Shown here: piece after piece, positions 1-49,995 of the stretch
Layout: each line of letters opens with the position of its first letter
How positions within the stretch are numbered: position 1 is the first letter of the stretch
NCBI GenBank assembly: GCA_964019335.1
Contig: OZ025676.1
Span: 1 to 64,000, forward strand
DNA length: 64,000 nucleotides
From: Diplonema japonicum
Lineage: Eukaryota > Protista > Euglenozoa: Diplonemea
Direction of reading: 5' to 3'
Made by a program: the position numbers and the translations under genes
Notes under the pieces: generated by a model
Told to the model about the DNA's origin: nothing
Databases searched by the model: none
The model's input: only the letters and a program-made list of their open reading frames with translations

Positions 1-117
1 GGGTTTGCGGGTTTGCGGGTTTGCGGGTTTGCGGGTTTGCGGGTTTGCGGGTTTGCGGGTTTGCGGGTTTGCGGGTTTGTGGGGTTTGCGGGTTTGCGGG
101 TTTGCGGGTTTGCGGGT
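1..117. repeat. Tandem 8-mer array (GGGTTTGC)n, about 14 units, running off the window edge
   Basis: Directly visible; one variant unit (GGGTTTGTG) near position 73-81. Confidence 0.97.
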
Positions 118-1761
118 CTGGATCCCACCCCTAGGTGTGTCAGGCCCCGACTGGCTGCCTCCGCTCGGTGCGTTCCCGCCCTCTTTGGTCCCTTCGGGGG
201 CGTCATCCGCCTGCGGCTTCAGAGTCCTCCCACCGCCCTGTCTCTTCGCAGCTTGTTCCCTACAGAATTCGCTCACGGTCATCTTCCTCGTAGCAGTTGT
301 CGCACTCTGGTCCCCCTTGTTCGAGTCCCTCTGGGCCTCCGTATCCCCCTTAGGACACTGGTCCAAGGTCTGGTTCACCGCAGCGTCAGTCGCCCCTTGT
401 CTCTTCCCATCTTCCTGGGCCTTCGGGTCAAGCTCCCCTCCCTGCCCAGCCCTCTCGCTGGATCCTGTTCCGGCCATCTCCGTGTCTTCTCCTCCCGGCG
501 AGGCTGCTTCGAGTCCTGCTCCCGCTTTCCCTTGTGTTCCACCCTCCACCGGTTCCGCCTTTCGCTGCTGCTGCATTCGGGCGTCCAGGTCCTTCTTCGT
601 CTGCTCCAGAAGGGCATCCAGCTGGTGGGCCACCGTGATTGGGGGTCCGCCTCCCTGTCCCTTCACTTCCCTCTCGGACGACTCCTCAGCTTCGGTGGTT
701 TTTTCATTGCCGAAGGAGTCCTCTGTGAGGTCAGTGTTGGATTCAGTGTTGGGTTCGTTGTTCGCTTCCTCGTTGTCCTTTTTTTCCTCTTCGCCGTCCG
801 GTACCGGGGGCCCTGGATCCAACTGTACAGGCCCTTTGACTAACAGCGCCCCTGCTATCGATCTCATCATGGCCGTTGACACCTCTTGGACCACACGCCT
901 GTGTATCGAGACTCTGTCCCCGTGAGCCCGCGCAGCTATGCTCCTGGACAGTTTCTTCGTGAGGTAGACTGCTGCCCCCCCGAACCCCCCAAAGGTCTCC
1001 ATCGCGAAAGGTACAAAGGCCACGCGTGTCTTGGCGAGCTCCGCCTCATACTTCTGGCGCTTGTAGTGTTCCGCCTTCGCCGCTGCGTACCCCGCAGTCT
1101 TCGCCGCCTGGTTGACACAAGACTCGTTCCTCGGGTGCACGATGACCACGTCCATAGCCATTGGGCGGGAACCCCCCACCCCACCTGGGAAGAACACGTC
1201 CGACGACCCCGGGATCAGCCCCGTCTTCTCCATCGTTGCGCTCACCCCGGCCCACTGACAGTGTCTGTGGATGGTCTCCTTCACCCGGTCGTGCGCAATC
1301 CTGGCGTTGCCGCATCCCTGGGCATGGTCACCCCATACGTCCATCCCCTCAGTCTTGCACCTCGGGTCGTGGCAGCTCTCACCCTGCTTGTAGACCGGAG
1401 CCCCCAACCACCACTTGATCAGAGCCCCAAACTCGTTGTCCGACAGCTGGTTGTAGAAGTCAGGCGTCGCCGTCAACCACGCCCCCGCATAGTGCATTGA
1501 CTCCGACATCAACCTCGCTCTCGAGCGTGCATCTGCTTTCGCCAAGAGGTCCTCCAGCGCCTTCTCATCAAGCACCCTAGAGAGCCACCTCTGGCTGCAG
1601 ATGTGGGGGGCCTTGGCCACCATGTCGGGTGTAATCTGCATGCCGCCTTTCGTCCTGTTGAACCACTCGAGCCAGCTCCCCCATACACCCCCTTCCAGCC
1701 CATGTTCGTATTTGGGATCCAGCTCCTTGCACAGCTTCATCGTCGACGCCCTCGAAGCCAT
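118..1761 (-). mobile_element. 5'-truncated CRE/SLACS-like non-LTR retrotransposon (post-RT region, CCHC knuckle, restriction-like endonuclease, low-complexity tail)
   Basis: Minus-strand frame from 1761 has no stop down to position 1, so the ORF track omits it. Hand translation: ASRASTMKLC...SQRWLSRVLD...ARLMSESMHYAGAWLTATP...CHDPRC...DVWGDHAQGC...RIAHDRVK...SDVFF...AMDVVIVHP...AEHYKRQKY...FVPFAMETFGGFG...VQEVSTAMMRSIA. This is the characteristic CRE-clade RLE C-terminal module; the RT core is absent. Confidence 0.88.
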
Positions 1762-1850
1762 GTTTGCGGGTTTGTGCGGGTTTGTGCGGGTTTGTGCGGG
1801 TTTGTGCGGGTTTGCGGGTTCCGGGTTTGCGTGCGGGTTTGCGGGTTTGC
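1762..1850. repeat. Second GGGTTTGC-type array, with four 10-mer variants (GGGTTTGTGC) and degenerate units
   Basis: Directly visible; abuts the 5' truncation point of the retrotransposon. Confidence 0.95.
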
Positions 1851-2518
1851 GCAACCTACAGCTTGCAAAGGATCATATTCTCAGTGACAACAAGCCGTTG
1901 TGATAGTAAATAGACATCTACAAAAAGATAATCTCGATTTTAGTGCCATGGTATGTGGCAAGCCACCCTTGTGAAACTCGCAAGCCCCCTGTGCATCATT
2001 GGCAAAGGCCGCGGAGAGGCTACTTGCCAGACCTGGTGAAGCCTTGTTCGAATTCGGATGTAATGGGATGGGCCTAGGGGGATGCTGTTGACAGCTGCAG
2101 GATGAGTTTTGTGTCGAAGTTTGAGTGACTTTGAGCTAGCGAGAACTTGGTCTTCCGATTTCAATTTTTGATGTAGACCGCAAACTCGGTACGACTTCAG
2201 CACAAATATTATTACTACTACAACTACTGCCATATCATTGCCCTCTCGCGTCGATGTCCTTCTAGGAGGACCTGAAGCCCAACCTTAAGTCCTCTTGTCA
2301 TGTTTGCCCCCTACGTGGTGTTTGTTTCGTTATTTCGAGAAAGGTGAAAACACAACCAAGAAACAAGGACACTAACGACTGAAAACGGAAAAAAAGCTGT
2401 GATGGGGGAGTAGTGTTAGCAACGACCCCCGACTTAAGTAAGAAAGAAAAAAAGAAAGAAACTTAGAATTGTCACGACTGACTTTGTTGGACATCATAGC
2501 CGTTCTGTTCGTGTTAGT

Positions 2519-3993
2519 CTATCGATCAGTGCATACCTCGTGAAACAGTTTTTTCAAACGCCCCTTTAAAGCTGGCGCATCAGCTGGATCCATGCCCGAG
2601 AGGTAAGGTGCGAGCACGCCGTCGAGTATATCCTTCTCGGGTCCCAGGACGGCACCGCGTATTGCAGCCGCTATTTTAGCAGATTCCGTAGTGTCGAGTG
2701 CTTCGAGGAGCTCCACTGAGTGCTGCGACAGGCCAGCAACGACGTTCCCAGTGGCATCATACATCTCAATGTCGGCCGAGCCAGAAAGAGCGACAACCGG
2801 TTGCATGCTTCCCATTGTAGTACAGCTCTTGACGGTGGCGTGCAGCTTCACCCCAGGGTAAGATGCGTAACCCGGATAGTACTCCGTCACCATCGTGTTC
2901 AAAATCTCCTTACACGTCTCCACGGTAGGCATCTCGTCCTCGAAGGAAGGATCAAACACACCTAGCTCACCCTCCTCGACATCCTCCTCGTCGTCTTCGT
3001 CTTCCAAGTACGGGTGCTTCAAGAGCTCCTTTGCGGAAGGTCTGTCCTGCGGGTCAAAACTCAACGTCTTATATAAAAAGTCCATTTCATCATCTGTCAC
3101 CGTTGCAGGAAGGTAAGGGGCATCTGGCGGAAAGCTCCTCAAATCCTTTCTCGGCGTGGGACTCACGCTCTTAATGTAATTCTTTGCGTTTGCTGACTCG
3201 ATGTACGAGTACTGGCTCTCGCTGGGCGTGCCGATGACGTTTATGATGAGGTTCAGCTGCTCAAGGAAGTTGCTCCCTGGAAAAAGTGCCCGGTGTTTCA
3301 CAGAAAGCATCTCAGCGAAGATGCAGCCCACGGACCAGATGTCGATGGCATAGTTGTACTTCCCCCAGTTCATCAAGAGCTCAGGGGCACGATACCATCT
3401 TGTAACGACGTAAACGCTTTTCATGGTGTGCACATCGTCTCTTGCCAACCCGAAGTCACCTATTTTGAGGGAGCAATCCTGACTGACAAAGATGTTGTCA
3501 GGTTTTAAATCTCTGTGCACTACCTTTGCGGCGTGGACGGCTTGAACCTGTGATTGATGTGGTGTCGTACTGTACGGCATACCCCTGAAACGAGCTGTGT
3601 CGTGAACCATGATATGTGCTCCGGTGTGAGCGTAGGGCTATTTTTAAGGAGGCTTGTCAGATCCGTGTCCAGCAAGTCAGTCACGAGGTATATACTTTTG
3701 CAGTCACCCGAAATATCCTTTGGCTGCAATATGTTCAACAATCCCAGCACATTGTCATGCTCTTTAAAGTGTTTCAGCAACCGTACCTCTCTCACTAGCT
3801 TCTTCGCAGCATCCAACCCTTTAAAAGGATCTACAATCTTTTTAATGGCCACAGGAGTACCCAGCATGTGGTCAGTAGCAGAACACACTACACCGAAGGC
3901 ACCGTTACCAAGTGCCGCCTTTAGCTCGTATCTCTTTGGTACTTCAAAGAAGGTACCACTGACATTGTACCCTTCCAGTTCCTCCATATCCAT
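2519..3993 (-). CDS. Mitogen-activated protein kinase (ERK/p38-like) with C-terminal extension; intron 3548..3582
   Basis: GNGAFG, VAIKK, HRDLKPDN, DFGLAR, YVVTRWYRAPE. A 35-nt GTATG...CAG intron joins TQLVSG|VQAVH in frame. Confidence 0.93.
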
Positions 3994-4033
3994 TCCTGTG
4001 GTGGTGTGAACAAAAAGGGTAAACAAAAAAAAA

Positions 4034-4279: not shown

Positions 4280-5665
4280 CTACAAGATACCCATGAGACG
4301 TTTCTCTTTTGGGGTAAGGCTAAACTTCGTAACACGCAGCACCTGCTCTGTGTCCCCATCCCTGCTGCTAATGGTAACATCGCCAGCAGGGTCGTCGACA
4401 AGGATACTCCACGGCATCGACTCCTCACGGTGGAGGGAGGAGAGCCCTTCTAGAAACTCCCTCACGGCACTCTGCGAACCTTGCCCCATGATCATTTGCA
4501 TGTTTTCCTGTACCTGCTTCTGATGCTCTGCAAGGAATCCCCCAATAGTGATAGGTCTGCCTGCTGTAATGTGGCTGCTAAAGTCTACTTCCACCTTCGG
4601 TACCTCAACTGTCGCCTCCCTTGAGTGGAGCATAACACGTGAGAGGTCTTCTTTGCAGGTCACCACTAATTCTACCCTTCTGCCAGGCTTCGAAACGTCC
4701 TCCTGACTCAGCAGTGACGCCGTGTCCAGATACACAGAGGACATCGACGACATCCTGTCAGCGTAGCCCTTCAGATCTTCAGACCACCGTAGCTGATGTG
4801 CTAGATATGCAAGTGCCGCGTCGCAGTCATCAGGGACATAGATATCCCTCCCACGCCCATACTTCAGACCGACATCCTCACCAACCTTCATTTTGCTGAT
4901 GACCATCCGGTAGCACGTGGACGGTACCTCGTTGGGGAGCTCACTCAGGGGTGCCACCGTCAAGCTTGTTCCCACAACCAGAAGGAGATCCATATCTGAG
5001 TTCTCAGTCAAGCTGGCAGCGTAGCTGTCGTCAAGTGCCTCGCCGTAAAGTACTACGTCAGGGCGCATTCCTTCCCTACCGCATGACGTGCACAACATGG
5101 GCTCTGTTTTGTCGGGTGCTGTCGTGTCTTCTCCAGTAATGTCTTTCACTTTGTGCCGCAAATGATCGACAAAAGTAGCGAAACTCTCTTCCTTCCTGCA
5201 GTAGTGACAGCTTATAGTCGTCATCTTTCCGTGCACATTAAAGACCTTTTCCTTGCTCACTCCCGCTTCTGTCTCCAAGCAGTCGACGTTTTGCGTATAG
5301 ATTTTCGTGAGGAGACCGTGCTCCTCCAACAACTTGAGCATGAAATGCGAAGCAGTAGGCTTGAGCACCTTGTCTTTCAGCTTTAAAGAAAAGTCGCGCT
5401 TTACCTCCAGAAATGGCAGCTGACACTCCTCAAATACCTCCTTCGACACAACGCGTGATGGCTCCTCTGCGATGTAAGCCTGCTGCGCAGCAGAAGTGGA
5501 CAAGCGCGCAACATCTAGAGTATTGTAAAGGCCTTTAGCCGAGCGGAAATCGTTGATACCGCTGTTAACGCTGATCCCCGCACCTAGCAAGACACCTATG
5601 TTCTTGATGGTGCCATCTTTGATCTTAGCAGCAACGTCCTCTACAGTGTACAAACGCGGGAGCAT
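4280..5665 (-). CDS. Class I sirtuin (SIRT2/Hst2-like NAD-dependent deacylase) fused to a C-terminal ZPR1 A/B-like domain
   Basis: GAGIS..SGI.DFRS, YTQNVD, HG, CxxC...CxxC, RPDVVLYGE, GTSL. Tail has EDLSRVMLHSREATVEVPKV...ITIGGFL...SILVDDPAGD. Confidence 0.9.
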   Translation of the reverse strand: MLPRLYTVEDVAAKIKDGTIKNIGVLLGAGISVNSGINDFRSAKGLYNTLDVARLSTSAAQQAYIAEEPSRVVSKEVFEECQLPFLEVKRDFSLKLKDKVLKPTASHFMLKLLEEHGLLTKIYTQNVDCLETEAGVSKEKVFNVHGKMTTISCHYCRKEESFATFVDHLRHKVKDITGEDTTAPDKTEPMLCTSCGREGMRPDVVLYGEALDDSYAASLTENSDMDLLLVVGTSLTVAPLSELPNEVPSTCYRMVISKMKVGEDVGLKYGRGRDIYVPDDCDAALAYLAHQLRWSEDLKGYADRMSSMSSVYLDTASLLSQEDVSKPGRRVELVVTCKEDLSRVMLHSREATVEVPKVEVDFSSHITAGRPITIGGFLAEHQKQVQENMQMIMGQGSQSAVREFLEGLSSLHREESMPWSILVDDPAGDVTISSRDGDTEQVLRVTKFSLTPKEKRLMGIL

Positions 5666-49128: not shown

Positions 49129-49803
49129 TTAGAGATCTTTCTGCCCGCCGCCTTTGCCGTACTTCTCGTAGAAGTCGATCGATCGCTGGACGTAGTTGTC
49201 CACATCGATGCTCTTCTTGAAGGCAGGAACCCCCTCCATGGCAGAAACCCATGCCCAGTACTTTTCGAAAGCAGGCCCATCCTTGGGAAGAACCTTGTTG
49301 CGGTAGTGAGCAAGGAGGAGGTTGGTTCTGTACGCGAAGGGGTACAGTGAGAAGTCCAGCGCCGACGGCGAGGCACCACCCAAGAACGGTGAAGTTGGCA
49401 GCTGGGAGAACATGGTATCTAGATTGGCAGTGAGCTGCTCAAAGCCTTCATTTTGCACAGCAGGGTCTTCGCTTTTGAGCACTTTGTACATCAAAGACAT
49501 TATCTTTGTGTTCCCAAAGTCCATCCAGTGCTTCATCTCCGCTTTCTCCTCAGGAGTGCTCCCAAACAACGAACCGCCATACTTCTCGTTCAAGAACTCC
49601 ATTACGCGGTGCGAGTCGATTACCGTTATGCTGTCAGTCACCAGCACAGGCACCTGCCCCACACCACGGGACACCTTCAACCACGCCTCCTTCTTGTCGT
49701 ACGGGTCCACTTCCTCAAGTCTGAAGTCCGCACCGAGGTGCAGCGCCACCACCAGCGCACGCTGTGCGAACGGACAGTACCAAGCAGAGTAAAGCTGCAT
49801 CAT
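49129..49803 (-). CDS. Glutathione S-transferase, omega/DHAR-like
   Basis: YCPFAQR, GQVPVL, DS..MEFLNE, FLGG...ALDF. Confidence 0.9.
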   Translation of the reverse strand: MMQLYSAWYCPFAQRALVVALHLGADFRLEEVDPYDKKEAWLKVSRGVGQVPVLVTDSITVIDSHRVMEFLNEKYGGSLFGSTPEEKAEMKHWMDFGNTKIMSLMYKVLKSEDPAVQNEGFEQLTANLDTMFSQLPTSPFLGGASPSALDFSLYPFAYRTNLLLAHYRNKVLPKDGPAFEKYWAWVSAMEGVPAFKKSIDVDNYVQRSIDFYEKYGKGGGQKDL

Positions 49804-49995
49804 TGCTGAATGCCTGGGTGAGTAAATATTTAGAGGCATTAATGTTGAGGGCAGCATAACAGTGTCTACTCCTGAACTCTGATTGAATCAGTGTGCAGGT
49901 GGATACAAACAAGACTTCTTCTTCAAGAATCCCGCGGTTCAGGGCTTGCGGAGTGTCGGCAGCTGAAACACTTCGAAATAAAGAACACTAGACAA

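What the first reader, a model, noticed from the sequence alone, without database searches (positions are those of the whole stretch)
1..1850. CRE-like RLE retrotransposon nested in a (GGGTTTGC)n array: candidate repeat-targeting element
Seen: a minus-strand ORF with the CCHC knuckle and RLE motifs is bounded exactly by GGGTTTGC repeats on both sides. It is truncated right after the RT-thumb-like 'ASRAST' segment and co-oriented with all host genes. Known: CRE-clade elements are often site-specific (SLACS/CZAR/CRE in spliced-leader genes, fungal MoTeR in telomeric repeats), and 5' truncation is typical of target-primed reverse transcription. Inference: this family targets, or itself deposits, an 8-mer repeat rather than SL RNA genes, a specificity I do not recognise in euglenozoans.
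Basis: partly seen in the sequence, partly recalled or inferred. Interest (0 to 1): 0.8.

Follow-up and report, generated by a model that had tools for sequence, protein, structure and literature searches.

The report
Diplonemid retrotransposon fragment inside 8-base repeats
In a marine flagellate that is likely a diplonemid, a damaged 1.65-kb middle piece of a jumping gene with an estimated 60 copies sits between two runs of the 8-base repeat GGGTTTGC, other copies join the same repeat at many different break points, and the family likely uses this repeat as its landing site, as some fungal elements do with telomeres.

Summary
Window 116-1764 (minus strand) encodes the linker, CCHC knuckle and restriction-like endonuclease (RLE) of a non-LTR retrotransposon. 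Its fold matches R2; its nearest named relatives are diplonemid SLACS-like proteins. Contigs from public runs hold the element at about 60 times host depth and continue past BOTH junctions. The copy is therefore an internal fragment, cut at the 3' end too, and it lacks residues in two conserved motifs. Other copies join GGGTTTGC at 9 further positions (6 cut at the 3' end, 3 at the 5' end), mostly with 1-3 nt of overlap. Repeat association is thus a family trait, as for MoTeR/FoTeR. Strict endonuclease targeting, self-deposition and telomere identity are not shown. The true 3' end was never seen, the joints fit no single cut phase, and the strand polarity here is opposite to a chromosome end. 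No listed contig bridges the window's own two junctions. I found no paper on repeat-associated CRE-like elements in euglenozoans. This scan has already noted an element in an 8-base repeat elsewhere in this genome (e1-10630253). Verdict: new variant of a known kind.

The parts
1..117 (+). Nearly pure (GGGTTTGC)n array, G-rich on the + strand, running off the window; matches a G-quadruplex-type pattern
116..117 (.). 3'-side junction (element sense). Two letters (GT) fit both repeat and element; the multi-copy element continues for at least about 1,088 nt beyond it
   Evidence: tables 7 and 8 (X1 record 1, X7 record 25); (X3, X11, X12)
118..831 (-). Low-complexity acidic/Gly-rich C-terminal extension of the element ORF, about 238 codons, stop-free and weakly constrained
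   Evidence: similar long tails in 10 of the 14 other rows of its tree group
832..1230 (-). Restriction-like endonuclease domain (D188, D204, K234). This copy lacks 12 nt after 1201, including the R-P of the RPxD motif
   Evidence: table 4
1285..1374 (-). CCHC zinc knuckle (C130, C135, H146, C150) and RH(D/N) motif. This copy lacks the R codon (3 nt after 1293)
   Evidence: table 4
1375..1764 (-). Linker region that follows the RT thumb in relatives; there is no RT domain in the window
1762..1764 (.). 5'-side junction. Three letters (GTT on +) fit both repeat and element; the multi-copy element continues upstream in frame
   Evidence: table 7 (X1, X5); (X3)
1762..1851 (+). Degenerate array: five 10-mer GGGTTTGTGC units plus 8-mer and variant units, joined to single-copy flank
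   Evidence: contigs 1785-2034 (X1, depth 12.6) and 1791-2034 (X3, depth 18.6)
2500..3989 (-). Host MAP-kinase-like gene, last gene of a unidirectional cluster transcribed towards the array; 35-nt intron near 3546-3580 and 32-nt intron near 2505-2536
   Evidence: both introns are skipped in X7 and X12 contigs

Best explanation
The stretch is a damaged internal fragment, cut at both ends, of a multi-copy RLE non-LTR retrotransposon whose family likely inserts into (GGGTTTGC)n arrays by target-primed reverse transcription. Shown: the domains, the multi-copy state, both cuts, the motif losses, and repeated joins to the repeat with 1-3 nt overlap. Inferred: a nick or break in the G-rich strand of an array gives a 3' end. 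The element's RT pairs 1-3 nt of that end with the element RNA, often at an internal site as here (116), and copies towards the RNA 5' end. It stops early (1764) and rejoins the repeat by 3 nt of overlap. Full-length RT-bearing copies elsewhere would supply the enzyme; this copy is likely dead. The array here is internal, at the downstream end of a unidirectional gene cluster. Whether the same repeat also caps chromosomes is open.
For: Fold model at pLDDT 91.8; its top 7 Foldseek hits are all R2 proteins, 5 at E<=0.001. Relatives carry RVT_1 upstream in the same ORF (13 of 15 scanned). Element-contig depth is 52-63x host in X1, 57-73x in X3 and 9-29x in X5. Repeat joints in other copies: repeat-then-element at 383, 430, 935, 973, about 1200 and 1532; element-then-repeat at about 650, 1652 and 1739. 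They come from runs of three studies (X2/X5, X7, X13); 935 and 1532 occur in two samples. Overlaps total 16 nt over 7 scorable joins against 4.9 expected (P about 0.0003), or P about 0.003 with two blunt joins counted as zero. All joints keep one polarity, C-rich strand on the element's sense strand, as for FoTeR whose 3' ends are followed by TAACCC. Insertions cut at both ends are described for endonuclease-independent L1 events, and internal priming gives 3' truncation (PMC4859970 passages).
Against: The natural 3' end was never seen, so precise targeting is untested. The joints fit no single cut phase: 383, 935 and 973 allow a cut after TTT to TTTGC, while 116 and 1532 need one after GG(G)(T). 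Some breakpoints do not meet the repeat (X5 at 167, X7 at 799, X11 at 769, an element-element joint 166 to 1043 in X2). The tables were cut (5 joints, 154 and 109 loose ends hidden), so this is no census. Joints with the repeat are also easier to see because the repeat is part of the reference. The tool warns that depth is no copy number and that short-sided joints near repeats can mislead. [quoted passage not shown] No listed contig bridges the window's own two junctions. The same junctions could arise by DNA repair after insertion.
Confidence: 0.55

Rival explanations
1. The family sits in or near these arrays, by targeting or by accumulation in repeat-rich blocks between gene clusters. The observed junctions were made later at DNA level: breaks in the quadruplex-prone arrays were repaired by microhomology joining or by new repeat addition, fusing element interiors to repeat.
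For: 1-3 nt overlaps at both junction types and no common phase. Both arrays match a G4 pattern. Interstitial repeat tracts between MoTeRs break often and are healed (PMC7367193 passages). [quoted passage not shown]
Against: New repeat addition explains only the element-then-repeat joints, and 6 of the 9 other joints are of the opposite type. Uniform polarity needs an ordered array to begin with, which itself implies targeted insertion.
Confidence: 0.27
2. The element itself deposits the repeat, as a tail or a terminal tract carried in its RNA.
For: MoTeR1 carries telomere-like TTTGGG tracts at its 5' end. The natural ends of this family were not seen.
Against: The repeat meets the element at 11 different internal positions and on both sides. 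There is no GGGTTT or TTTGCG seed in window 118-1761. The repeat region is laid far deeper than the element in X13 (summed depth 1,642 against 1-41 per bin; qualitative only).
Confidence: 0.08
3. The local arrangement is an assembly join between a collapsed multi-copy element and repeat arrays, although the family and the repeat are real.
For: No listed contig crosses 116 or 1764 into the repeat. The window's own letters at 977 and 1293 were not seen in contigs of X1, X5 or X7. The window begins inside a repeat.
Against: A collapsed copy should equal the majority form, but this one differs at 977 and 1648 and by two in-frame gaps. Such contigs drop rare variants. Equivalent joints exist at 9 other positions. 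The variant array is linked to the unique flank in two runs.
Confidence: 0.1

Closest known systems
MoTeR1 (Magnaporthe oryzae; PMC7367193) and FoTeR (Fusarium oxysporum; PMC12857005)
   Same: RLE non-LTR elements that group with CRE/SLACS/Cnl1, are flanked by a simple G-rich repeat and have the C-rich strand on the sense strand. Many copies are truncated, variant repeats lie at the 5' side, and some internal relics have repeat at both ends.
   Different: Their repeat is the telomere (TTAGGG) and their 5' ends point to the chromosome end; here host genes lie on the 5' side. MoTeR relics keep their 3' end on the repeat; here this copy and 6 other joints are cut at the 3' side. The motif is an 8-mer.
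Trypanosomatid CRE clade (SLACS, CZAR, CRE1, CRE2; PMC12278014)
   Same: Euglenozoan host and RT-RLE architecture with zinc knuckle. A member of a near relative's cluster in D. papillatum is annotated 'Retrotransposable element SLACS 132 kDa protein'.
   Different: Those insert at a fixed site in SL RNA genes, with a poly(A) tail and target-site duplication. Here the flanks are a simple repeat and the ORF runs on for at least 238 codons past the RLE.
D. papillatum SLACS-like orthogroup OG0000024 (745 genes; PMC10161547 supplement 5)
   Same: Likely the same broad diplonemid expansion; 4 of 4 taxon-named near relatives are diplonemid.
   Different: Only about 30-33% identity. No target preference is given in the main text or the 7 readable supplements; Additional file 1 could not be read.
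Endonuclease-independent and internally primed L1 insertions (review PMC4859970)
   Same: Copies cut at both ends, at breaks or damaged telomeres.
   Different: L1 is an APE-type element, and such events are a side route rather than a repeated pattern at one repeat.

Membership tests
RLE-type non-LTR retrotransposon | CCHC zinc knuckle before the endonuclease | tested here: met
   C130, C135, H146, C150 invariant in 16 sequences
RLE-type non-LTR retrotransposon | PD-(D/E)xK restriction-like endonuclease | tested here: met
   D188, D204, K234 conserved; fold matches R2. This copy lacks the R-P before D188, which the high-depth form has
RLE-type non-LTR retrotransposon | RT domain upstream in the same ORF | tested here: inconclusive
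   Absent from the window. The 30 loose letters past 1764 stay in frame and align with the post-thumb motif of relatives; 13 of 15 relatives scanned have RVT_1. This family's own RT was not retrieved
CRE clade (SLACS/CZAR/CRE1) | RT phylogeny groups it with SLACS/CRE/Cnl1 | not tested
   No RT of this family and no reference CRE sequences were in hand. A quick tree of the RLE region puts it in a 15-row group with all 4 named diplonemid rows, support 84, not starred
CRE clade (SLACS/CZAR/CRE1) | Insertion into SL RNA genes | tested here: not met
   Both flanks are the 8-mer repeat. No Rfam family at gathering threshold in the window; this part is weak, since a diplonemid SL model may be missing
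CRE clade (SLACS/CZAR/CRE1) | Poly(A) tail and target-site duplication | not testable with these tools
   The natural 3' end lies at least about 1,088 nt beyond 116 and was not retrievable
Telomere-targeted MoTeR/FoTeR type | Copies flanked by one simple G-rich repeat, C-rich strand on the sense strand | tested here: met
   Window plus 9 further joints, all with one polarity
Telomere-targeted MoTeR/FoTeR type | Located at chromosome ends with the 5' end distal | tested here: not met
   62 kb of host genes lie on the element's 5' side, and the G-rich strand points towards them; one locus only
Telomere-targeted MoTeR/FoTeR type | The repeat is the host telomere repeat | not testable with these tools
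   No genome held; no paper giving a diplonemid telomere motif was found
Telomere-targeted MoTeR/FoTeR type | Natural 3' end joined to the repeat at a fixed phase | tested here: inconclusive
   Seen joints are internal and of mixed phase; natural 3' ends were not seen

The most novel reading that the evidence does not exclude
(TTTGCGGG)n is this diplonemid's telomeric and gene-cluster-boundary repeat, replacing the TTAGGG known from Euglena. The element's reverse transcriptase routinely primes on free G-rich 3' ends of these arrays, pairing 1-3 nt anywhere along its RNA. It would thus patch broken arrays with fragments cut at both ends, as an RNA-templated repair route for a euglenozoan repeat.
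Probability: 0.22. Interest if true: 0.75.

Novelty: new variant of a known kind. Interest (0 to 1): 0.5.

Why it matters
Described euglenozoan CRE elements are SL-RNA-gene specialists. A diplonemid relative tied to an 8-base repeat would be an independent shift to a MoTeR-like niche and a new candidate target for an RLE. It also raises a directly testable question: whether this diplonemid has an unusual 8-base telomere or boundary repeat. The high share of 3'-cut junctions differs from MoTeR and may point to internal priming or repair at repeat breaks. The window copy itself is likely inert.

Tried and rejected
No whole genome was held, so no genome-wide junction table could be made. Pfam found nothing in the element ORF. 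The single-sequence fold failed (pLDDT 32.9) and was redone with a 69-sequence alignment. No close or full-length copy was found: word-index searches gave 5 distant hits (longer proteins) and 1 (near length), both limited to 7,997 candidates. In JGI metagenomes 26 stretches matched a pattern and 0 were confirmed. The four-unit repeat is absent from viral contigs. It occurs in 22 metagenome loci, 0 of which encode a relative by tblastn or HMM; the motif alone does not imply the element. No RNA holder was listed as such. X7 and X12 contigs skip host introns and also hold the element, but contigs cannot show which copy is transcribed or its level. The tail coding test against run X12 used only the 39 listed changes (61 rows hidden): 34 codons changed, 14 synonymous, 20 not, 0 stops. 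The per-site synonymous count was 15 against 12.0 expected (P 0.19), so there is no clear purifying selection. The one 'stop' vanished when adjacent changes were combined. The careful tree did not finish; only the quick tree is reported. X11 and X13 hold the near-identical element with little or no host flank, read as low-level presence of the same DNA rather than as other hosts. I rejected the reading of position 1 as a chromosome end because of strand polarity. Literature searches for the motif gave primer noise only.

Full report
What is in the sequence. Window 1-117 is a nearly pure (GGGTTTGC)n array, and 1762-1851 is a degenerate array with five perfect 10-mer units. All 17 matches to the 8-mer in the 64 kb fall in these two blocks. 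Between them lies a 61% GC segment, against 45% in the flank, with a stop-free minus-strand frame of 548 codons from 1761 to 118. No second copy exists in the window. All host ORFs with Pfam hits, including a paraflagellar-rod-like protein, are on the minus strand. With short introns (GT-AG for the 35-nt one) confirmed by spliced contigs, this fits a diplonemid gene cluster as described for D. papillatum (PMC10161547, sections 8 and 9 and passages read). Two of nine host proteins looked up are in the collection, under EukProt only. The host species was not determined.

What the protein is. Pfam finds nothing. An unindexed HMMER search of the first 312 residues gave 2,940 hits at E<=0.001, best 37-38% identity. 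Of 20 top hits looked up, 4 carry a taxon: two D. papillatum and two Rhynchopus humris. One cluster member is annotated 'Retrotransposable element SLACS 132 kDa protein'. The CCHC knuckle and RLE residues are invariant in a 16-sequence alignment. A model built on 69 sequences (pLDDT 91.8) matches R2 retrotransposon structures in its top 7 Foldseek hits, TM 0.44-0.50. Of 15 relatives scanned, 13 have RVT_1 and 5 have a weak OTU hit below cut-off. A quick tree of 80 rows was built from 155 hits, 147 of which passed a coverage filter; I used the top 70 plus nine chosen rows and the window. It puts the window in a 15-row group with all four named diplonemid rows at support 84, which is not firm. 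No trypanosomatid or fungal reference was in the tree, so CRE-clade membership by phylogeny is untested. D. papillatum has 745 genes in a SLACS-like orthogroup (supplement 5), so such elements are common in diplonemids.

The copy is an internal, damaged fragment. Seventeen public runs hold part of window 118-4000; I laid 8 of them, all as contigs. Element contigs have 52-63 times the depth of the neighbouring kinase contig in X1, 57-73 times in X3 and 9-29 times in X5. The tool cautions that depth is no copy number, so about 60 copies is an estimate. These contigs do not stop at the window's junctions. Before 116 they carry other letters in X1, X2, X5, X3 and X12; X7 record 25 runs about 1,088 nt further and X11 record 1 about 505 nt. 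Behind 1764 they continue in frame in X1, X5 and X3, with residues that align to the post-thumb motif of relatives. The high-depth form also has 12 more nt after 1201 and 3 more after 1293. These fall in the RPxD and RH(D/N) motifs seen in relatives, so this copy is likely inactive. The acidic tail after the RLE is stop-free (chance about 0.001 from composition) and stays so in the listed changes of a diverged relative in X12. It shows no clear synonymous excess. Long tails occur in 21 of 123 relatives overall and in 10 of the 14 other rows of its tree group.

The repeat link is a family trait. The joint tables show repeat followed by element at 430, 935, 973, about 1200 and 1532 (X2, X5) and at 383 (X13). 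They show element followed by repeat at 1652 and 1739 (X2) and at about 650 (X7 loose end ending in the 8-mer). Joints 935 and 1532 recur in two samples of one study; the set spans three studies. Polarity is the same in all. Seven joins could be scored, including the window's two, and they share 1-3 letters with the repeat: 16 in total against 4.9 expected (P about 0.0003). Counting two blunt joins as zero gives P about 0.003; the joints near 650 and 1200 were left out as unscorable. Results against: breakpoints not meeting the repeat were listed at 167 (X5), 799 (X7), 769 (X11) and 166-to-1043 (X2). Several further internal joints have unknown letters between and probably reflect diverged copies. 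The tables hid 5 joints and 154 plus 109 loose ends. The reference itself favours seeing repeat joints, and one listed joint has a side of only 20 letters. The joints fit no single cut phase. No listed contig bridges 116 or 1764, although contigs at about single-copy depth link the variant array to the unique flank (X1, X3). As a control, 22 metagenome loci with four units of the repeat encode no relative.

Mechanism. In target-primed reverse transcription (established knowledge), a nick in the target gives a 3' end that primes cDNA on the element RNA. Here the cDNA strand is the + strand, so the repeat-then-element joint is where copying would start. For a normal insertion that is the RNA's 3' end; here it is an internal site in 7 cases counting the window. 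I infer priming by 1-3 nt pairing at internal RNA sites, from nicks or breaks in the G-rich strand, followed by early stop and rejoining to repeat. Internal priming and endonuclease-independent insertions cut at both ends are described for L1 (PMC4859970, passages read). The main rival is later DNA-level repair in break-prone arrays, as documented for MoTeR arrays (PMC7367193, passages and section 28 read). Both arrays match a G4 pattern. Self-deposition has no support but cannot be excluded without the natural ends.

Is the repeat a telomere? At a chromosome end the G-rich strand runs towards the end (established knowledge). Here it runs towards the host genes, and the element's 5' side faces them, whereas MoTeRs have their 5' ends nearest the chromosome end. 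This locus is therefore internal, at the downstream end of a gene cluster, or is an internalised relic like the two MoTeR relics with repeat at both ends. Variant units next to unique DNA resemble a telomere's inner edge but also the edge of any satellite. Euglena makes TTAGGG (PMC3622300, passages read). I put the telomere reading at about one in three.

Comparison with print. Trypanosomatid CRE elements insert in SL RNA genes (PMC12278014, passages read). FoTeR groups with MoTeR1, Cnl1, SLACS, CRE1/2 and CZAR and has TAACCC after its 3' ends (PMC12857005, abstract and sections 18 and 19 read). Cnl1 forms subtelomeric arrays (10.1101/2021.08.11.455996, passages). Repeat and microsatellite targets are known among RLE elements (PMC4640811 and PMC10088271, passages). 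Base J occurs in Diplonema and marks cluster boundaries in trypanosomatids (PMC1874636 and PMC2095807, one passage each; 10.64898/2026.07.29.740908, passages); a link to this array is speculation. Searches showed, at listing level, no report of this motif as a telomere or of a repeat-associated CRE-like element in euglenozoans. The library lacks most subscription papers. Additional file 1 of PMC10161547, which covers D. papillatum repeats, was too large to read and may bear on this. An unreviewed note from this scan (e1-10630253) describes an AlkB/OTU/RT element in an 8-base telomere-like repeat in the same genome. A by-sequence look-up with this element found nothing, so whether it is the same family or motif is unchecked.

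Verdict. This is a real, multi-copy, repeat-associated RLE retrotransposon, seen here as a dead fragment cut at both ends. It works like MoTeR in its tie to a G-rich repeat but fails the telomere-position test at this locus, and the exact targeting step is unproven. New variant of a known kind; interest 0.5.

Noticed in passing
window 2005-2040: A 35-40 bp motif downstream of the kinase gene is multi-copy in the laid runs, with many different flanks on both sides. It is single in the window and shows no folding signal; possibly a small dispersed element.
   Followed up: partly
window 4280-5665 (-): A Sir2 deacetylase domain is fused to a ZPR1 jelly-roll domain in one ORF.
   Followed up: no
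window 49129-49857 (-): A glutathione S-transferase whose 25 hits are at most 43% identical; the two with a taxon name are bacterial. Candidate horizontal transfer.
   Followed up: partly
window 2505-2536 and 3546-3580: Very short introns (32 and 35 nt) in the kinase gene, skipped in contigs of X7 and X12.
   Followed up: yes
window 1851-1875 and the X7 loose end at 799: The letters that follow another truncated copy in X7 resemble, by eye, the first bases of the unique flank next to the right array. This may be chance or a shared boundary motif.
   Followed up: no
proteins P0016, P0185, P0198, P0205, P0221: Related retrotransposon proteins carry weak OTU-protease hits before the RT (below Pfam cut-off).
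   Followed up: partly
run X12 on window 116-774 and 2537-3345: The element differs at 49 of 653 letters while the host kinase differs at 6 of 809, so the element family has diverged more than host genes between these two sources.
   Followed up: partly
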